From positions 1-35,442 of the IMG/VR virus record IMGVR_UViG_3300031260_000108: a DNA stretch of 35,442 bases; one strand, given 5' to 3'. Source of the DNA: a virus. The translations under genes and the position numbers were made by a program. The notes beneath the pieces were generated by a model. The model made no database searches and was not told the DNA's origin. It worked only from the letters and a program-made list of their open reading frames with translations. Below, one piece after another: positions 15,463-33,446 of this stretch. Positions within the stretch are counted from its first letter, which is position 1, and every line of letters begins with the position of its first letter.

Positions 15463-15873
15463 CTACCGGGATAAGGAGGCCTGTATAGGCATATTCATAC
15501 GGTAAATCTTGAGGAGGTTCCTCAGGACCGCCGCGTATAGACCCACATCCACCCCATACTCTTTGAGGATACGATAATCCTCAAAGCGGATGGTGTAGGG
15601 GAGCCGGGACTCCAGGATGAAGACTGTGAGTGCAAGGAGCACCTGCTCCCATGAAGCCCTCCGGTGGAGGTCTGAGAGTTTCACCCTCTCCACGATCCAC
15701 ATCACCTCCTCCACATCACCCCTTGTGACCGGGAGGCTTGTCTTGGCATCGGATTCAAGGAATCGGCGGTACTGTGATAGTCTCCAGGACCTAACACCTT
15801 CCTTAGAGGAGTTCTTTGAGTTCCACTCTACAGGGGTGTTATTGTTCTTTGAGTTTGCTCTAGCATCCTTCAT
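15463..15873 (-). CDS. Protein resembling a single TFB cyclin-fold repeat
   Basis: LHRRASWEQVLLALTVFILE resembles the TFB repeat motif (L.RGRS.E.V.AA.LY..CR); adjacent to a TFB-type zinc ribbon. Confidence 0.45.
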   Translation of the reverse strand: MKDARANSKNNNTPVEWNSKNSSKEGVRSWRLSQYRRFLESDAKTSLPVTRGDVEEVMWIVERVKLSDLHRRASWEQVLLALTVFILESRLPYTIRFEDYRILKEYGVDVGLYAAVLRNLLKIYRMNMPIQASLSR

Positions 15874-16709
15874 TTAGCAGCACACTCCTCTGCAGCGTAG
15901 ATTGGGGTGTAGTAATACCCTGACTTGCTTTTCACTCGTTTTTTTCCTGTTTTCACCACGCCATCCACGCCACGTATGATTGCGGTGAATGCGTTGCGTT
16001 TCATGTACCTTGACTTTGAGAATTTAGCGTTATAATTGTTTAGCACGACCTCCTCGTAGATTTCTAAGGCTGTGGATGGCCCATTACATTCCAGGTAATT
16101 CCTTATGCATCCCTCAAAGTCCTTCCTGCTTGTGAGTGGTTGTAATTCAATGTAGTTGGTGTGCAGATCTTCAAGTATCTCTTCTGTTGTCTTTGTCTTG
16201 AATATTGCTGGTTTCCTGGGGTCCTTTGTGTTCCCTATGACGATCCAGCCCTTCCAGAACCAGCCCACCCTCGTGGAGCATTTGCGTGTGATCCAATTAT
16301 AGAGTGTGTGGTATGGTACCTTCACCTGCCGGGCGAGGGTTTTTGTAGTGTATCTGTCTGGGTTGTGATAGGCATCCCAGTGCCTTGCAAGGGTGTAGAA
16401 GGGGATTCTGTCAAAGACTTCCTGTATTGTCTTCGAGTCGGCCTTGTGGAGTGGTTTTTTTACTCTGTGTTTAGATCGTCTCAGGTATAGTACAGGTTCT
16501 TTATGAGGCTCTGAGGGTGGGTATGCGTCTCTTTTGATTTTCTCAGCGTATTCATAGATTTTATCCTTATTATCTATGAGGATCTCTCTTATCATCCCAG
16601 AGATGGGTGCTCCTGTCTCCTGTTTCACGTTTTTAAGTTCGTCGAGTAGCGTTTTAGGTAGTGTTATTGATATTAATGAGTACATCCAGACCCGCCCCTT
16701 ACACATCAT
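15870..16709 (-). CDS. Multi-domain DNA-binding protein (RHH + HTH + winged helix)
   Basis: ISITLPKTLLDELK..ISGMIRE (RHH); TKTLARQVKVPYHTLYNW (HTH); C-terminal wHTH-like segment. Confidence 0.7.
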   Translation of the reverse strand: MMCKGRVWMYSLISITLPKTLLDELKNVKQETGAPISGMIREILIDNKDKIYEYAEKIKRDAYPPSEPHKEPVLYLRRSKHRVKKPLHKADSKTIQEVFDRIPFYTLARHWDAYHNPDRYTTKTLARQVKVPYHTLYNWITRKCSTRVGWFWKGWIVIGNTKDPRKPAIFKTKTTEEILEDLHTNYIELQPLTSRKDFEGCIRNYLECNGPSTALEIYEEVVLNNYNAKFSKSRYMKRNAFTAIIRGVDGVVKTGKKRVKSKSGYYYTPIYAAEECAAK

Positions 16710-16915: not shown

Positions 16916-17623
16916 CTATCCCTCCATATCAGGGTGCCTGTACTCTGGCCTAAGCACCCCATCAACATATGATGCCCCCAGATGATCGAATTCACTATCA
17001 AAATAGGTAACCCACCTCGTCTTATCATACCCGAGAAGCCCTGAATAATCATCATAATGTCTGAGCAGAGGCAGGCCTTCATGGTATATGTATGCATATA
17101 TGTCCTCAAAACTCCAATCCCTTAGAGGGTAAGCCTCATGGGGGTCTCTGCGCGTGTCCAGGATCCTCCTTGTTCTTTTCCATCGTTTACGTGATTCATC
17201 AGCCCTGAAACCGAGGAGGACGAGGTCGAAGCCGTTGGCATCTATCAGGGATTTAAGTTCCACCCAAAAACTTGGGGGGATGCCTGGGATTTCCCTCTGG
17301 CTCAGCCTCCAACCTTCCTTCACCTTGAGGACTTTAAGGTTCTCTTTTTTCGCTCCGATCTTCATAGCATTCCTGAGTATCCTGTCCTTGATGTTGCGCG
17401 GGACGAATGCTGGGCCCCAGTCAGTGTGAACAACGTCAACGTCCTTTTCTATGAGGAGGGTTAAATGGAGGAGGACTGTGCTGTCCTTCCCTCCGCTGAA
17501 TGCAACGTATGGACGCCTGTAATCTTTGAAGAGTTTCTTGATGAATCTGAGGGTTTGGGCTTTGAGTTCCAGGAACTCGTCCCGGGTTGCGTAGATCTTC
17601 ATGGCTTCCTTGAATTTCCTCAT
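16916..17623 (-). CDS. cysH: CysH/PAPS-reductase-like adenine nucleotide alpha hydrolase (type IV-B accessory)
   Basis: PP-loop FSGGKDS, GFRADES and YPLRDWS motifs; no Cys residue in the protein. Confidence 0.9.
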   Translation of the reverse strand: MRKFKEAMKIYATRDEFLELKAQTLRFIKKLFKDYRRPYVAFSGGKDSTVLLHLTLLIEKDVDVVHTDWGPAFVPRNIKDRILRNAMKIGAKKENLKVLKVKEGWRLSQREIPGIPPSFWVELKSLIDANGFDLVLLGFRADESRKRWKRTRRILDTRRDPHEAYPLRDWSFEDIYAYIYHEGLPLLRHYDDYSGLLGYDKTRWVTYFDSEFDHLGASYVDGVLRPEYRHPDMEG

Positions 17624-18270
17624 CTTAGACCATTCATCCTTAGGTTAGTCATTAATTCTGCTATCTGTTCGAATTCCTTTTCTATCGCGTAGCATACGGC
17701 TCCAAGGTTCTCCGCGGCCATTATAGTAGCCCCTGAACCTGCGAATGGGTCGAGGATGATATCCCCAGGGACTACATAATGGCTGAGGAGGTGAGTTATC
17801 ATCGCGGGCGGTTTCGCCCATCCCTGATGGACATGTTTCATCCTCGACCCACCAGGTTCGTTCAGGTAGTAGGATTCGTTCATGGTTGAGTATAAGGGTT
17901 TATCAGTTCTGATGTGTTTTCTGCCGCCATTGAGGTGTACGATGTGGTATGAGTTAGGTATGGGTGTGAATATGCGCTTATTCGGTTTAGGCTTCATTAT
18001 TATCGTGTAATAATAGTTAACATAGTCATAGAATTCCTTTGTCAGGACTTTAACCTGTTCTGTTGATAAACAGATGAATGCAGCCCACTCATCATCCATG
18101 CACCTGAGGGCCTTGTTAAGCCAACTGAAGTCGTAGAGGTCAAATGGTGGGTCTGTGAAGAGGATGCCGGCCTTCTTATCATTGAGGAGAAGCTGGTAGG
18201 TGTCATCGTTGAATGCATCGCCATGTATGACCCTATGATCCTTGATTGGTGTCACAGCACCTGTTATCAT
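17620..18270 (-). CDS. DNA amino-methyltransferase (N6A/N4C, beta class)
   Basis: Catalytic motif IV DPPF precedes SAM-binding DPFAGSG; KP motif (WAKPP). Confidence 0.88.
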   Translation of the reverse strand: MITGAVTPIKDHRVIHGDAFNDDTYQLLLNDKKAGILFTDPPFDLYDFSWLNKALRCMDDEWAAFICLSTEQVKVLTKEFYDYVNYYYTIIMKPKPNKRIFTPIPNSYHIVHLNGGRKHIRTDKPLYSTMNESYYLNEPGGSRMKHVHQGWAKPPAMITHLLSHYVVPGDIILDPFAGSGATIMAAENLGAVCYAIEKEFEQIAELMTNLRMNGLR

Positions 18271-19016
18271 AGGGCCTCCCCTACTAGCTGATTCTTGGGG
18301 GCTATGCAGAGGTCTATGTTCCTCTTGTCCCAGTATGGTGGCTTATAGGCCATCTTCATAATCACCTGGCCCGCCCCTACAGGTAGGGGGACCTTCAGGC
18401 TTGTGGGGATGGGCCTCATCACCCCATACTCATCATGGTAGAAGCTATGATCCATCTCCGTCTCCCTGACCTTGAGTTTGAGGATTTTACCGCCGCCGAT
18501 GCCTGTCTTCTTCCCCAGGTGTGTGAGGTGTTTGAGGAGCCTCTCCACCTCCACTATGTCGCCACAGCCATAGAAAGTCACGGTGTCAGTGACTATTATT
18601 GGGTAGGTGATCATATGGTTCTTGTAGTGGCCGCTGCCTATACCATATGACCTGTTGAGTAGTTGAGGATGGTTCTCGATGAAGTAATCCTCGAAACGCT
18701 TATAGATGCGGGATGTTCTGAGCCTCGGGGCCCTATAGACGCCGACGCTGGCATGATACACGTCCCCCGTCCGCCTCAACGGGAGCTGCATGGAGCTGAA
18801 GTCGAATAGGTGGTTGGTGGGGATGTCATAGAAGTCCCCGCCGAGGGCCTCCCTGGTGCAGAGGTACTGGATGATCCCGTCGAGGTAGATCCATGCGTTC
18901 CCTGTGAATACTGGTGGTTTGACCCTGAATTCCGCCTTGAAGGGTGTGTGTGCATCCCCTCCTGGTTGGTAGGCGCTGATTTTATCCTGGATCCTGGCAG
19001 CAAGAGACATGATCAT
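18267..19016 (-). CDS. csf3: Type IV Cas5-family RAMP Csf3
   Basis: YHAS, FYGCGD, Gly-rich loop LGKKTGIGGG, RPIP and YKPPYW motifs; follows csf2. Confidence 0.88.
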   Translation of the reverse strand: MIMSLAARIQDKISAYQPGGDAHTPFKAEFRVKPPVFTGNAWIYLDGIIQYLCTREALGGDFYDIPTNHLFDFSSMQLPLRRTGDVYHASVGVYRAPRLRTSRIYKRFEDYFIENHPQLLNRSYGIGSGHYKNHMITYPIIVTDTVTFYGCGDIVEVERLLKHLTHLGKKTGIGGGKILKLKVRETEMDHSFYHDEYGVMRPIPTSLKVPLPVGAGQVIMKMAYKPPYWDKRNIDLCIAPKNQLVGEAL

Positions 19017-19858
19017 CGCCAGTTTGCCTGTAATTCATCAAGAAACTCTCTGATCAGGTCAGCCTTCTCCTCGACATACGAGAGGTATGTTGCCTCAGCA
19101 TCAGGGTCATAGTCATAGCGGATATCCAGTTTCCCGTACCCTGAACCGCTCTTCCCCCCGAGGTAGGGGCGTTCGCTCCACAGGTTCAATGCCCGGATGA
19201 AACATGATTCCTCAACAGGGTCAGTGTCTGTGAGTGTGAATTCATGATAGAACTTCGCACCCTTCACGATGACTTCGAACTCGTACTTCATCTGCGTCGC
19301 CTGCTCTCCATCCTCTCTGTCCTCCTTGTACTCCCTGAGACTATCAAGGCGGGTCCCGAAGTCCCTCGCCTTCAGGGAATAACTTGAAGGGCCATCGATG
19401 TCACAGTACTGTTTCTGCTGCCAGTAAAGTTCCTTGCAGATCGGTTCTGCAAGGTCCACCTTCAATTTGCCCTGGAGCATCTGATTGCCCAGGGCAGAAC
19501 CCCAGAGACTTGCTGGTGGGATGTACTTGCGGATCCCTGATTTGAGTTTCACGTCAATCATACCAGAGGATTTTGTGTTAGCCTCCAGGAGGCCCCCTGT
19601 GAAGAGAAAATGGTAGATCTTCGCTGATTTGAGGTCATAATCGAGTTGATCCAGGAAGTCCTGCATGACCAGGCGGCGGAGGTACCCCCTGATCGCATTC
19701 CCATGGATGTAGGGGACGTCCTCAACCCTCATCCCCTTCTCATCCTCTATGAGTGTGGGGAGTGTGAGTATGGGTTTTATCGTCCCATAGACTTCAGGGC
19801 CGCCGTGATGGATAGGTGTCCGGGCAGTTAACACTCCAGGGTACTTAACAGTCCTCAT
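19013..19858 (-). CDS. csf2: Type IV Cas7-family RAMP Csf2
   Basis: TARTPIHHG, GNAIRGYLRR, LFTGG, LWGSALGNQM and LGGKSGSGYG motifs. Confidence 0.93.
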   Translation of the reverse strand: MRTVKYPGVLTARTPIHHGGPEVYGTIKPILTLPTLIEDEKGMRVEDVPYIHGNAIRGYLRRLVMQDFLDQLDYDLKSAKIYHFLFTGGLLEANTKSSGMIDVKLKSGIRKYIPPASLWGSALGNQMLQGKLKVDLAEPICKELYWQQKQYCDIDGPSSYSLKARDFGTRLDSLREYKEDREDGEQATQMKYEFEVIVKGAKFYHEFTLTDTDPVEESCFIRALNLWSERPYLGGKSGSGYGKLDIRYDYDPDAEATYLSYVEEKADLIREFLDELQANWR

Positions 19859-20202
19859 ACTTCATCACCTTCATCCTCTGCTTTCTTCATTTTGAGTTTC
19901 TCAACAACTTCCAGGGCGAGTAGGACTGCGTAGTTGGTCTCGTGTCTGAGGAGGTTGAGTGCTTCGTCTTCGTTCTCTTTGAGTGTGTTTATGTCTTTGA
20001 GGCTGTGCTGGGTGAAGCTGACACCGCACATCCTGTTTAGTTCTTCTAGGAAGGATGTGATGGTGCTCATGCGGCTTGCTGCGCGCACACGGTCTGTGAA
20101 GTATGTGTACGCTGATTTCACACCAACTTTCTTCCATTCAATGTTCCTATACGTCATCGCAAGGCACTTTGCGAGGGCGTTTTCAGTCTTCTCATCAGTC
20201 AT
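19855..20202 (-). CDS. cas11: Cas11-like small subunit (start revised to 20202)
   Basis: All-helical ~115 aa between csf1 and csf2; GGAGGAGG RBS before the ATG at 20202. Confidence 0.7.
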   Translation of the reverse strand: MTDEKTENALAKCLAMTYRNIEWKKVGVKSAYTYFTDRVRAASRMSTITSFLEELNRMCGVSFTQHSLKDINTLKENEDEALNLLRHETNYAVLLALEVVEKLKMKKAEDEGDEV

Positions 20203-20203
20203 C

Positions 20204-20335
20204 CTATACGCCTCCTCCAAGTATTGCGGATATTAGGCCCAGGACTACGAAGAATAGTACTATTCCCAGGCAGATCATGGTCACCCATACCCCTATCCTG
20301 ACGAGGATGGGTGCCGGGTTCTTCTTTTGGGTCAT
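20204..20335 (-). CDS. Unannotated 43-aa membrane peptide MTQKKNPAPILVRIGVWVTMICLGIVLFFVVLGLISAILGGGV
   Basis: Translated by hand; GAGGTGA RBS; fills the csf1-cas11 gap; stop 1 nt before the cas11 ATG. Confidence 0.8.
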   Translation of the reverse strand: MTQKKNPAPILVRIGVWVTMICLGIVLFFVVLGLISAILGGGV

Positions 20336-20356: not shown

Positions 20357-20980
20357 TTATGCCATGTCTATGAGTAACTCCCATGTGGGGTTACCCTTCA
20401 ATTTGTTTAGGGTGATGTTCAGGTTCCTGGCTTCCCTGACGGTCATGTCCTGTAGTTTCCCTAGGTTCACATCACCAGTCTTCATCTCCGTCTTACTGAT
20501 TCTGTATTTTTCTCTGAGCTCGTTAATCCATTCTATGGTCTGGACTGCTAATTCACGGCTTAGTGTATGTGTTTCCATGTCACAGGCTAATCTGATGATC
20601 TTCTGGTTGGGTTGGTTCAGGAGGCCGTCCATGATTATCCAGCCTATCTTCTTGTACGTCCTTGTCAGGTAGAGGTAGTATGGTTTGTCTGGTGGTTCTT
20701 TGAGGATCTGTGGGAGTTCTGGGCGTTTGAATGGGTGGAATTTGTCTTCTGTGAGGATCCACATTGTCCTGCGGAGTTTGTTGCTGTCTTTTTTGAGTGT
20801 CATGCAGTAGGGGCAGATGACGTCTCCTCTGCTTGTCTGGTCTGTTGTTGTGAAGGTTGTGCCGAGTCTTTTTTTGTGTCCTTGTCTGGTTTGTTGGTGG
20901 CATATGCAGCACGTTCCTTGTTCTTTGCCGGGGCTGGGTTCTTGTTTTGTGGCTTTGGTGTACATTGTGCTGAGTTTCAT
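20357..20980 (-). CDS. csf1: Type IV large subunit Csf1 (Cas8-like, Zn finger)
   Basis: CCICH...ICPYC zinc finger, RRTMWI and PPDKPY segments; first gene of the csf cluster. Confidence 0.82.
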   Translation of the reverse strand: MKLSTMYTKATKQEPSPGKEQGTCCICHQQTRQGHKKRLGTTFTTTDQTSRGDVICPYCMTLKKDSNKLRRTMWILTEDKFHPFKRPELPQILKEPPDKPYYLYLTRTYKKIGWIIMDGLLNQPNQKIIRLACDMETHTLSRELAVQTIEWINELREKYRISKTEMKTGDVNLGKLQDMTVREARNLNITLNKLKGNPTWELLIDMA

Positions 20981-26570: not shown

Positions 26571-27335
26571 TTATTCTCCTATGATCCGTGGGGCGAGAAG
26601 GAGATTCGCCTTAACCCCATTGGACGAGTATTCTAATCTGATGGGTTTCTCATTGTCGATATGGATTGTGACGGTCTCAAACCTGGGTAGGATGAGTGGT
26701 TTGAGTTTTTCTATTGTGAATCGGCTTAAGTATTCTCCATCCACTCTCTCCCCATGCACATGGCGGAAGATGACCTGGAAAGGATTGTAATCATTGCATG
26801 TCTTGAGATGTAGATAGTCCTCATCAACTTTTATGTCTATACTCTCTGATGATGTGAGGGCTGCGTCTTTGAAGAAGGATGTGATGATGTCTGTGTTGAC
26901 TGTGAGGGTTGCGTTTAATTGGAATGTGTCTATTTGTGCTGTTGGTGTGGCGTATTCTGTGTCAGGGCAGGGTATTGTGAACCTGGTTTCGCCTTTCTCT
27001 GTTGACCTGGTGATGATGAGGGATGTGGTGTTCTCTTCATCATCGGTTTTGTTGGTGATGGTGATTGTGTCTTCTCTTCGTGTGAGTTTCAGGATGTTGT
27101 TGAGTTCTTCAACAGGGATTATGATTTCTTCTTCCTCTGGGACTTTGTATGTTGTGAAGAATTCTGGTGTGATCTCTATGTTGTAGTAGGTGATGTGTGA
27201 GCCGTCCATTCCGGTTATGGTGAGGGATTCTGGCGTGGCGTGGATGGTGGCGATGTCAACGTTTATCTGTGTTAACATCTGTGTTATGCTGTGAAGGTCT
27301 GATGGGTTGTCTGTCTCGAGTTTTATGGCTTTCAC
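26571..27335 (-). CDS. pcna: Viral PCNA sliding clamp
   Basis: 254 aa; ITGMDGSHI, PIRLEY and terminal LLAPRI are PCNA hallmarks. Confidence 0.92.
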   Translation of the reverse strand: MKAIKLETDNPSDLHSITQMLTQINVDIATIHATPESLTITGMDGSHITYYNIEITPEFFTTYKVPEEEEIIIPVEELNNILKLTRREDTITITNKTDDEENTTSLIITRSTEKGETRFTIPCPDTEYATPTAQIDTFQLNATLTVNTDIITSFFKDAALTSSESIDIKVDEDYLHLKTCNDYNPFQVIFRHVHGERVDGEYLSRFTIEKLKPLILPRFETVTIHIDNEKPIRLEYSSNGVKANLLLAPRIIGE

Positions 27336-27660: not shown

Positions 27661-27950
27661 CCGGTAACCCGGGGTTTAACATCTTTTTTGTGGGTTTCCG
27701 GGTTATTGGAGGATTCTAATGTAAAGTAACCAAGGTAACCAAGGTAACCTATATATAAAAGGTAACTTGGTAACCAAGGTAACTTAGGGGTTTGACCAAA
27801 ATTTTTTTGGTATAGGGTATCACCCCTCAGGTTCAGGTTACCTTTTGAGGAAATCGCAGAGAACTCCTTTTTACTGAAAAAAAGGCTCTCCAGGCCTCTA
27901 AAGGTAACCTCATGGTTGAGGTTACTTTGGGTTACCTTCAGGTTACCTCT
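27661..27950. repeat. Iteron-like array, probable replication origin
   Basis: About 12 GGTAAC/GGTTAC units, 9-bp tandem periodicity at 27726-27785 around ATATATAAAA, with oppositely oriented copies at 27836-27948. Confidence 0.75.
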
Positions 27951-32705: not shown

Positions 32706-33446
32706 CTACTTTATTAGGAGTATGCTGGGTTGTGACAGGTTATTTATCGCCTGAACTACTTGTCCTTGAGTGAACTCTCGAATCCCCTTCGTTGGGTCAG
32801 CTATCCTCACCACTCCCTTCTTCCTGTTCACGCCGACGAGGTAGACATAGTGACCGAATGCTCCACGCCAGACCACCTGACCATTCACATCAGTATCCAG
32901 GCCGGGCCTTGTGACGAGGTGGATGATCACCTCCCCACCGTTCTCGATGTGTTTGATGATTCCGGGCCATCCAATGGCGCTGAAGTACTTGAACACTGCT
33001 GTGATGTTCTTCTTGCACTTCTTCGCCGCATAATTCACCGCTTTGAGCATCCCCTTATGTGGTGTGCCTGAGTTGAGGGTCCCGGCGGCCTTGGCCAACT
33101 CATCCTCCTTTACATTGCAGCCGAGGGCGGATAGGGCCATCTGCAGGCTGCTGGGCCCGCAGGTATGGTCAGTGTCCTGGAAATCCTGCTTGAAGTACCC
33201 TGTTGTTGTCCACTCATCGCTAACCGTATCTGCCTTCACCCTGACAAAAGAGGGCTTCCTCCCAGTGGACGCCACGAAACGTTCATATCGTATCACCATA
33301 TCATTAAACACGTCCCTTGGGATCTTCCCCCCAGCTCTATCAGTAACGTAGTTAGGTTTTCTGCCCTTCTGGACCCTGAACGCCTCCCACCGACGCTTCA
33401 TATCCAGGAACTCATCTAATTTGTATTTATCCTTCATCCATCTCAC
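32706..33446 (-). CDS. Pseudomurein endoisopeptidase-like lysin (two pseudomurein-binding repeats + C39-like peptidase)
   Basis: Two N-terminal F.DM..RYE.F....GRKP.YV repeats; QDTDHTCGPSS, GHYV and IADP catalytic motifs. Confidence 0.88.
   Translation of the reverse strand: MRWMKDKYKLDEFLDMKRRWEAFRVQKGRKPNYVTDRAGGKIPRDVFNDMVIRYERFVASTGRKPSFVRVKADTVSDEWTTTGYFKQDFQDTDHTCGPSSLQMALSALGCNVKEDELAKAAGTLNSGTPHKGMLKAVNYAAKKCKKNITAVFKYFSAIGWPGIIKHIENGGEVIIHLVTRPGLDTDVNGQVVWRGAFGHYVYLVGVNRKKGVVRIADPTKGIREFTQGQVVQAINNLSQPSILLIK

What the first reader, a model, noticed from the sequence alone, without database searches (positions are those of the whole stretch)
17620..18270. DNA methyltransferase inserted inside the IV-B operon, between csf3 and cysH
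Seen: a beta-class amino-MTase (DPPF then DPFAGSG) overlaps csf3 and cysH by 4 nt on each side, so it is translationally coupled rather than a bystander. At 216 aa it has little room for a target-recognition region. Inference: specificity may be supplied by the Csf ribonucleoprotein, giving an RNA-guided or complex-guided DNA modification system (MTase plus CysH-like enzyme). I know of no description of this architecture.
Basis: partly seen in the sequence, partly recalled or inferred. Interest (0 to 1): 0.82.

Follow-up and report, generated by a model that had tools for sequence, protein, structure and literature searches.

The report
Methyltransferase inside viral type IV-B operon
A virus of methanogenic archaea carries a small but complete DNA methyltransferase gene between two genes of a guide-less type IV-B CRISPR operon; most such operons have no gene there, but several other viruses keep different DNA-modifying enzymes in the same slot, which is an unproven clue to what type IV-B systems do.

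Summary
A 216-aa beta-class amino-methyltransferase (18270-17620, minus strand; TDPPF then DPFAGSG) lies between csf3 and a cysteine-free cysH-like gene, with ATGA overlaps on both sides. The record is a 99%-complete Methanobacteriales tailed virus with no CRISPR array.

- The enzyme folds like the autonomous 232-aa M1.HpyAVI.
- It belongs to a phage family that is normally fused to a ParB_N domain, which is missing here. That family is never linked to Csf or PAPS-reductase genes elsewhere (0 of 80 loci).
- In 32 csf3-then-cysH junctions found without reference to methyltransferases, csf3 abuts cysH in 20.
- 4-nt overlaps are common in this genome (8 of 26 junctions).

However, the csf3-cysH junction is a variable slot. 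In other loci it holds IbrA-like PP-loop enzymes, ParB-like proteins, a GNAT, glycosyltransferases and a second compact methyltransferase family (DPPW). That second family co-occurs with IV-B genes in 14 of 80 viral loci.

Best reading: an autonomous self-protecting viral methyltransferase carried as slot cargo (about 0.45). Main rival: an accessory enzyme of a IV-B/CysH modification pathway (about 0.33). RNA-guided methylation is unlikely (about 0.07). This scan has noted similar IV-B plus methyltransferase/IbrAB operons on other DNA.

The parts
17620..18270 (-). Compact beta-class exocyclic-amino DNA methyltransferase (216 aa, protein P0001). It has TDPPF at residues 39-43 and DPFAGSG at 174-180. 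It is the only DNA methyltransferase detected in the virus.
   Evidence: Searches give the family matches and motifs. The AlphaFold2 model has pLDDT 86.6. Foldseek finds M1.HpyAVI, CcrM and M.MboIIA as best matches. PF00145 and PF02086 are absent from the record.
18267..19016 (-). csf3 (Cas5 of type IV). Its stop codon overlaps the methyltransferase start codon (ATGA).
   Evidence: TIGR03116 at 1.1e-18. phmmer hits to csf3 in 32 loci. Sequence read.
19013..19858 (-). csf2 (Cas7 of type IV)
   Evidence: PF03787 and TIGR03115. 53% identical to the csf2 of L090.
19855..20220 (-). cas11-like small subunit
   Evidence: phmmer hits to the gene in the same position in 14 IV-B loci. My own HMM scores 4.9e-50, but the window protein is part of that HMM.
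20357..20980 (-). csf1 (type IV large subunit)
   Evidence: TIGR03114 at 1.6e-08, below its cut-off. phmmer hits to csf1 in 16 loci.
16916..17623 (-). CysH-like PP-loop protein (235 aa) with no cysteine. Its start codon overlaps the methyltransferase stop codon (ATGA).
   Evidence: PF01507 at 9.4e-16. Homologues at 34-45% identity. Sits in a well-supported 19-row clade of the cysH tree. Zero Cys residues.
15463..16709 (-). Two downstream genes of unknown function (279 aa and 136 aa, joined by a 4-nt overlap), between cysH and the terminase genes. Whether they belong to the module is not shown.
   Evidence: No Pfam match. phrog_30657, of unknown function, for the 136-aa protein. The protein atlas gave only weak leads, scores 0.80 or lower.

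Best explanation
The gene encodes a catalytically intact, unusually compact beta-class exocyclic-amino DNA methyltransferase. The DPPF motif points to N6-adenine as the most likely target. It is the only methyltransferase of a Methanobacteriales head-tail virus.

It is transcribed with the array-less type IV-B cassette, just upstream of the terminase and portal genes. I infer that it acts on its own on replicated viral DNA, at a short or degenerate motif, so that progeny genomes are protected from host restriction enzymes.

Its position is explained by the csf3-cysH junction being a variable accessory slot of viral IV-B cassettes. On this reading the methyltransferase is cargo of that slot. 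It is neither a core Csf subunit nor a guided effector.

Shown here: the gene, its motifs, its fold, the operon layout and the variability of the slot. Inferred: the substrate, the autonomy and the anti-restriction role.
For: - The catalytic and SAM-binding motifs are conserved across the family alignments.
- The AlphaFold2 model is confident (pLDDT 86.6, pTM 0.85). Its best structural match is the autonomous, GAGG-specific, 232-aa M1.HpyAVI (TM 0.72-0.81), followed by CcrM and M.MboIIA. A sequence profile also finds 5hek first, at 3.3e-17.
- The closest family is phage ParB_N::methyltransferase fusions (phrog_498). The same compact core occurs in hundreds of phages.
- None of 80 IMG/VR loci with relatives of this enzyme has Csf, IbrA or cysH genes. 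None of the first 50 records has PF01507.
- csf3 directly abuts cysH in 20 of 32 junctions, including members of the same CysH clade. The same is true of Skermania phage SPI1 and the published Fuxivirus (PMC10848311).
- The closest IV-B relative, L090 (Csf2 53% identical), has IbrA+GNAT+ParB_N in the slot instead.
- Phage and plasmid methyltransferases with degenerate or no specificity, used against restriction, are established precedents: M.EcoGII (PMC5778455) and M.EcoGIX (PMC7736820).
- In Streptococcus phage Javan123 a methyltransferase of this family also lies just upstream of the terminase genes.
Against: - A second compact beta-class methyltransferase family (DPPW) sits in the same csf3-to-cysH slot in other IV-B viruses. 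It co-occurs with IV-B genes in 14 of 80 viral loci, far above any plausible base rate.
- The slot's cargo is dominated by nucleic-acid-modifying enzyme families rather than random accessory genes.
- This enzyme lacks the ParB_N domain that most of its relatives have.
- Its inter-motif region is shorter than in M1.HpyAVI, and residues 95-150 of the model are of low confidence. Autonomous DNA recognition is therefore not assured.
- The genomic context of the 76%-identical relative (P0003) could not be retrieved.
Confidence: 0.45

Rival explanations
1. The methyltransferase is an accessory enzyme of a IV-B/CysH nucleic-acid modification pathway. It would work on the same substrate as the Cys-less PP-loop CysH-like enzyme, possibly on nucleic acid held by the Csf filament. 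On this reading it fills the role that the DPPW methyltransferase of the IbrA/IbrB cassette fills in other IV-B viruses, and the Csf complex may replace the missing ParB-like partner as the nucleic-acid-binding module. No sequence-specific guide is required.
For: - A distantly related family occupies the same slot. The order is csf3|DPPW-MTase|cysH in L324 and csf3|217 aa|DPPW|cysH in L330. In L350, L395 and L398 it is csf3|~310 aa|IbrA|ParB|DPPW|cysH.
- The DPPW family has a beta-class methyltransferase fold (pLDDT 93.3). It is only a distant relative of P0001 (hhalign probability 97%, 16% identity).
- 14 of 80 DPPW loci carry IV-B genes. 74-77 of 80 carry IbrA-like and ParB-like genes.
- Other slot cargo includes PP-loop/DUF3440, GNAT, ParB_N, GT2 and PD-(D/E)XK proteins.
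- Both compact methyltransferase families normally pair with a ParB-like module, fused in one family and as a neighbouring gene in the other. The window and L324 lack that module but have Csf genes.
- The literature already speculates that IV-B is linked to epigenetic or restriction-modification functions (10.1101/780106; PMC8175902).
Against: - Only 2 of the 32 csf3-then-cysH junctions hold a methyltransferase-fold gene in the slot (L244, L261). A third locus, L084, has one downstream of cysH.
- The window has no IbrA, ParB-like, DPPW or 'unk300' gene.
- P0001's own family shows no Csf link anywhere else.
- Sharing an operon in a phage accessory region can reflect a recombination hotspot.
- There is no interaction or activity data.
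Confidence: 0.33
2. One reading: the Csf ribonucleoprotein supplies target specificity, so this is RNA-guided or complex-guided DNA methylation.
For: The inter-motif region is short and the ParB_N domain is missing. The gene lies inside the effector operon.
Against: - The 99%-complete genome has no CRISPR array, no mini-array, no cas6 and no Rfam RNA.
- The only characterised IV-B complex bound heterogeneous non-CRISPR RNA (PMC7937560).
- Most IV-B loci lack any methyltransferase.
- The same compact core works without Csf genes in many phages.
Confidence: 0.07
3. It is not a DNA methyltransferase in vivo. It could methylate RNA, such as small RNAs captured by Csf, or a protein, or it could be catalytically idle.
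For: The beta-class enzyme M.EcoGII also methylates RNA in vitro (PMC5778455). Weaker fold matches include MT-A70-type enzymes, the MTA1 complex. The published IV-B complex binds RNA (PMC7937560).
Against: All strong sequence and structure matches are DNA N6-adenine or N4-cytosine methyltransferases. The motifs are intact. The protein is conserved at 99% in a cluster of 8 sequences, with P0001 itself seen on 78 contigs, and at 76% in a second lineage.
Confidence: 0.08

Closest known systems
M1.HpyAVI of Helicobacter pylori (PDB 5HFJ/5HEK; 232 aa; GAGG-specific N6-adenine methyltransferase)
   Same: It is the best structural match (TM 0.72-0.81, Foldseek E about 1e-13) and the best profile match (3.3e-17). 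Both are beta-class with motif order IV then I, and both are single-domain enzymes of similar size.
   Different: Identity is only 20-24%. The window protein has about 27 fewer residues between the motifs. It has no cognate restriction enzyme nearby, and it sits inside a Cas operon of an archaeal virus.
Phage ParB_N::methyltransferase fusions (phrog_498), for example Streptococcus phage Javan123 QBX14138.1 (418 aa)
   Same: This is the closest sequence family. The whole 216-aa protein aligns to the C-terminal methyltransferase core at 25-30% identity.
   Different: The window protein lacks the roughly 160-200-aa N-terminal ParB_N domain, and no ParB_N domain is found anywhere in the virus. Those relatives are not linked to Csf or PAPS-reductase genes.
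Subtype IV-B CRISPR-Cas with a cysH-like accessory gene (Mycobacterium sp. JS623 complex, PMC7937560; Fuxivirus, PMC10848311; a Methanoperedens virus, 10.1101/2023.08.02.551345; Skermania phage SPI1, locus L003)
   Same: The gene order is csf1-cas11-csf2-csf3 plus cysH-like. There is no array, cas6, helicase or adaptation genes. The cassette is carried on a mobile element or virus.
   Different: In these systems csf3 is directly followed by cysH. In Fuxivirus the methyltransferase is a separate gene elsewhere in the genome. Here a methyltransferase is inserted between the two genes.
Viral IV-B operons carrying the IbrA-like/ParB-like/DPPW-methyltransferase cassette (L324, L330, L350, L395, L398, L325-327, L363)
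   Same: A compact (about 215 aa) beta-class methyltransferase lies between csf3 and cysH, often immediately upstream of cysH. L324 has the same minimal layout, csf3|MTase|cysH.
   Different: The methyltransferase belongs to a different family (DPPW; 16% identity at profile level). It is usually accompanied by IbrA-like, ParB-like and an unknown ~300-aa protein, none of which is present in the window.
Promiscuous methyltransferases of mobile elements: M.EcoGII (non-specific) and M.EcoGIX (degenerate SAY site, single-stranded DNA)
   Same: M.EcoGII is a beta-class enzyme on a prophage, and M.EcoGIX is carried on a plasmid. Both have low specificity and are interpreted as anti-restriction tools (PMC5778455, PMC7736820). 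They show how an enzyme with a small recognition region can still be useful.
   Different: M.EcoGII is 349 aa. No close sequence relationship to the window protein was shown here, and the specificity of the window enzyme is unknown.

Membership tests
Beta-class N6/N4 amino DNA methyltransferases (PF01555) | Catalytic motif IV, (D/S)PP(Y/F), lies N-terminal to SAM motif I, FxGxG | tested here: met
   TDPPF at residues 39-43 and DPFAGSG at 174-180. D40, P41, D174 and F176 are invariant in the family alignments.
Beta-class N6/N4 amino DNA methyltransferases (PF01555) | Profile match above the curated cut-off | tested here: met
   PF01555 scores 52.4 bits against a cut-off of 26.7, E 8.6e-14, but only residues 137-204 align. 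phrog_498 covers residues 11-203.
Beta-class N6/N4 amino DNA methyltransferases (PF01555) | Methyltransferase fold superimposable on solved beta-class enzymes | tested here: met
   AlphaFold2 model with pLDDT 86.6. Foldseek probability 1.00 to 5hfj, 6pbd, 1g60, 1boo and 1eg2.
Beta-class N6/N4 amino DNA methyltransferases (PF01555) | A target-recognition region between motifs IV and I | tested here: inconclusive
   The inter-motif stretch is about 133 aa, against about 160 aa in M1.HpyAVI. Model confidence is low over residues 95-150.
Beta-class N6/N4 amino DNA methyltransferases (PF01555) | Methyl transfer to DNA at a defined base or motif | not testable with these tools
   This needs a methylome or an enzyme assay.
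ParB_N::methyltransferase fusion family (phrog_498) | N-terminal ParB_N domain fused to the methyltransferase core | tested here: not met
   The protein starts 39 residues before motif IV. The protein has no PF02195 match and neither does the whole virus. Relatives L004, L005 and L001 do have the domain.
Subtype IV-B CRISPR-Cas (the genomic context) | csf1, cas11, csf2, csf3 and a cysH-like gene, with no array, cas6, helicase or adaptation genes | tested here: met
   Searches identify the genes. No repeats of array type and no Rfam match. A methyltransferase is not part of the IV-B definition.
IbrA/IbrB/DPPW-methyltransferase phage cassette | DUF3440 PAPS-reductase-like IbrA, ParB-like IbrB and a DPPW methyltransferase together | tested here: not met
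   HMMs built here for IbrA, ParB, DPPW and 'unk300' find none of these genes in the window; the cysH-like gene itself gives a secondary match to the IbrA HMM. PF02195 is absent. The window enzyme is only a distant relative of the DPPW family.
Type II restriction-modification system | A cognate restriction endonuclease gene next to the methyltransferase | tested here: not met
   The neighbours are csf3 and cysH. No nuclease domain was found in the operon, so this is an orphan methyltransferase.

The most novel reading that the evidence does not exclude
Type IV-B Csf filaments are the nucleic-acid-binding scaffold of a virus-encoded base-modification pathway. On this reading the Cys-less PP-loop CysH-like enzyme activates a position on the bound nucleic acid by adenylation, and slot enzymes (a compact amino-methyltransferase here; IbrA/IbrB, GNAT or glycosyltransferase in other viruses) complete the modification. 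The window would then be the minimal three-part form (Csf + methyltransferase + CysH), with Csf replacing the ParB-like partner that both compact methyltransferase families otherwise have.
Probability: 0.2. Interest if true: 0.9.

Novelty: new variant of a known kind. Interest (0 to 1): 0.58.

Why it matters
The function of type IV-B CRISPR-Cas systems and of their near-universal CysH-like partner has been an open question since they were defined. Published ideas include sequestering small RNAs and epigenetic marking, and neither has been tested. This window alone does not answer the question, and its methyltransferase may well be ordinary anti-restriction cargo.

The comparison it prompted is more useful. 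The csf3-cysH junction is a variable slot that repeatedly holds nucleic-acid-modifying enzymes, including two different compact methyltransferase families. That turns a vague idea into a bench-testable one: compare methylomes and nucleosides with and without the Csf and CysH genes. The window offers a small four-Csf plus methyltransferase plus CysH construct in which to do this. It also adds a Methanobacteriales virus to the few archaeal viruses known to carry IV-B.

Tried and rejected
The contigs that carry the 76%-identical relative (P0003) and the 28-34% stand-alone relatives (P0163/P0008, P0009) could not be fetched, so the 'close relatives elsewhere' test is only answered for relatives at 34% identity or less.
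The planned Csf3 + CysH + methyltransferase test was not run.
- Single-protein scans of IMG/VR with the methyltransferase, cysH and csf2 found no close relatives. megablast of 12 kb against the phage collection found nothing. tblastn of cysH against phages found nothing.
- I tested whether this enzyme's own family forms a pre-existing phage methyltransferase-plus-PAPS-reductase gene pair, and rejected the idea: 0 of 50 records have PF01507 and 0 of 80 loci hit the HMM panel.
- I looked for a CRISPR mini-array as in Fuxivirus and rejected it. Only coding-sequence repeats and a GGTAACC iteron-like repeat were found, and Rfam gave nothing.
- I looked for compositional evidence of recent acquisition. 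GC is 0.458 and GC3 is 0.535, low but within the range of the virus's genes, so this is not informative.
- Literature searches for IbrA/IbrB and DUF3440 returned nothing usable.
- The protein atlas search on the 279-aa downstream ORF gave only scores of 0.80 or lower.

Full report
**What is there**

The window is an entire IMG/VR virus record of 35,442 bp, and CheckV rates it 99% complete. On the minus strand one operon reads, in order:
- csf1 (20980-20357)
- cas11-like (20220-19855)
- csf2 (19858-19013)
- csf3 (19016-18267)
- a 216-aa methyltransferase (18270-17620)
- a 235-aa cysH-like gene (17623-16916)

Small genes of unknown function follow, then TerS, a psiM2-type TerL and the portal gene. 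A PCNA homologue and a domain resembling pseudomurein endoisopeptidase point to a Methanobacteriales host.

The methyltransferase has TDPPF at residues 39-43 and DPFAGSG at 174-180. Both of its junctions are ATGA overlaps. The genome has no CRISPR array or mini-array and no Rfam match. The cysH-like protein contains no cysteine.

**How much the overlaps mean**

Eight of the 26 same-strand junctions in this gene block are 4-nt overlaps, including protease/capsid-region genes and portal/TerL. The run from cas11 to cysH shows one tightly packed operon. It does not separate a partner from a passenger.

**What the protein is**

- PF01555 passes its cut-off, and phrog_498 covers almost the whole protein.
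- An AlphaFold2 model built on a 51-sequence alignment is confident (pLDDT 86.6, pTM 0.85), except over residues 95-150.
- Foldseek places it with solved beta-class amino-methyltransferases. The best match is the autonomous 232-aa GAGG-specific M1.HpyAVI (TM 0.72-0.81), followed by CcrM, M.MboIIA and N4-cytosine enzymes. A sequence profile agrees.
- The stretch between motifs IV and I is about 133 residues, against about 160 in M1.HpyAVI. The remark that there is 'little room' for a recognition region is fair.
- That compactness is a family trait. An all-against-library HMMER search found 4,207 relatives, and most full-length matches are the C-terminal half of 350-450-aa proteins. Pfam shows these to be ParB_N::methyltransferase fusions, as in Streptococcus phage Javan123.
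- The window protein lacks ParB_N, as do P0003, P0008 and P0009. The whole virus has no ParB_N domain and no other DNA methyltransferase.
- After a 99% cluster of 8 sequences (P0001 itself is on 78 contigs) and one 76% relative, identity drops to 34%.

**Is this enzyme's family tied to IV-B?**

No. In 80 IMG/VR loci that encode relatives, tblastn and an HMM panel find no Csf, IbrA or cysH gene. The first 50 of those records have no PF01507 domain.

**Is a methyltransferase a regular part of IV-B?**

No. I seeded the survey with an alignment of cysH-like homologues, which is unbiased with respect to methyltransferases. It returned 240 loci from metagenomes, genomes and IMG/VR, and 33 of them carry csf2 and/or csf3.
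- In 32 of these loci cysH follows csf3 on the same strand. The two genes abut in 20, and 12 have an insertion of more than 150 nt. Two of the 12 are duplicates of the same contig.
- Skermania phage SPI1 and the published Fuxivirus have the plain arrangement (PMC10848311).
- In a CysH tree the window falls in a well-supported 19-member clade. Plain and inserted junctions are intermixed in it, and the inner branching is unresolved.

**What the insertions are**

This is the unexpected part.
- The closest IV-B relative, L090 (Csf2 53% and Csf3 43% identical, with an integrase nearby), has three genes in the slot: a DUF3440 PAPS-reductase-like (IbrA-like) gene, a GNAT and a ParB_N protein.
- L246 has IbrA-like plus ParB-like genes.
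- L165 has a GT2 glycosyltransferase, and L245 has a weak GT2 match.
- L110/L259 has an HTH protein.
- L244 has a 215-aa protein with DPPW and a C-terminal motif I.

That last protein defines a family of about 215-aa proteins. Its model is very confident (pLDDT 93.3), and it matches beta-class methyltransferases. Against the window's family it reaches hhalign probability 97% at only 16% identity, so it is a distinct, distantly related compact methyltransferase.

In 80 IMG/VR loci carrying this DPPW family:
- ParB-like genes accompany it in 77.
- IbrA-like genes accompany it in 74.
- csf/cysH genes are present in 13-14.

Several of these loci place the DPPW gene between csf3 and cysH, and in six it lies directly upstream of cysH (L324, L330, L339, L350, L395, L398). 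In L339 cysH precedes the csf3-like ORF, so there the gene is next to cysH but not between the two. L325 adds a PD-(D/E)XK nuclease, and L375 pairs the DPPW gene with an SNF2 helicase. The window itself has no IbrA, ParB-like, DPPW or 'unk300' gene.

**Reading**

Two explanations remain close.

(A) Autonomous cargo. The enzyme has a complete fold like stand-alone enzymes. Its own family is independent of Csf. Most IV-B loci lack any methyltransferase. The slot is evidently a place where genes are swapped. Phage methyltransferases near the packaging genes, with short or degenerate specificity, are a well-known anti-restriction device (PMC5778455, PMC7736820). I put this at about 0.45.

(B) Pathway accessory. 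The slot's cargo is strongly biased to nucleic-acid-modifying families. A second methyltransferase family recurs at the same place in diverged IV-B operons. Both compact families normally have a ParB-like partner, which is missing exactly where Csf genes are present (the window and L324). I put this at about 0.33.

The strict RNA-guided version gets about 0.07. There is no guide source, and the only characterised IV-B complex bound heterogeneous RNA (PMC7937560). An RNA or protein substrate, or an idle enzyme, gets about 0.08.

**Novelty and limits**

No paper in the searchable library describes a methyltransferase inside a IV-B operon. Pinilla-Redondo et al. only speculate about epigenetic or restriction-modification links (10.1101/780106).

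This scan has noted similar IV-B plus methyltransferase/IbrAB operons on other DNA. I reproduced that pattern independently on my own loci. I found the L090 and L244 insertions before I read those notes.

As a result the contexts of the 28-76% relatives and any physical interaction remain untested.

Noticed in passing
window 27723-27786: Iterated GGTAACC / AAGGTAACC repeats flank an AT-rich core inside the replication-gene block. This may be an origin or an iteron site.
   Followed up: no
window 16916-17623: The cysH-like protein keeps the PP-loop motif SGGKDS but has no cysteine at all, so it cannot be a PAPS reductase or a DndC-type sulfur enzyme.
   Followed up: partly
L090:5669-8017: The closest IV-B relative of the window (Csf2 53% identical, GC 30%, integrase nearby) carries DUF3440-PAPS-reductase (IbrA-like), GNAT and ParB_N genes in the slot where the window has its methyltransferase.
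   Followed up: partly
L084:7415-7989 and L370:3202-3776: csf2 and csf3 are reduced to ORFs of about 105 aa, while cysH, the unknown ~300-aa gene, IbrA-like, ParB-like and the DPPW methyltransferase stay intact. The Cas part appears to be decaying next to an intact enzyme cassette.
   Followed up: no
L165:1520-2371 and L245:6963-7721: A family-2 glycosyltransferase sits between csf3 and cysH in an Actinomycetota MAG. A viral contig has a weaker match in the same slot.
   Followed up: no
L324:2290-10106: In this virus, possibly of Promethearchaeota since P0210 is named from such a MAG, the whole IV-B cassette lies between a gpA-type large terminase and a weak portal-like match. A second, canonical PF01555 methyltransferase lies just upstream.
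   Followed up: partly
L363:4411-5307 and 60 other ORFs in L324-L403: An unannotated family of about 300 aa with no Pfam match accompanies the IbrA/ParB/DPPW cassette. It gave 61 ORF hits in the 80 loci.
   Followed up: no
window 32706-33446 and 26571-27335: A lysin with an N-terminal region like pseudomurein endoisopeptidase, and a PCNA homologue. Both indicate a Methanobacteriales host.
   Followed up: partly
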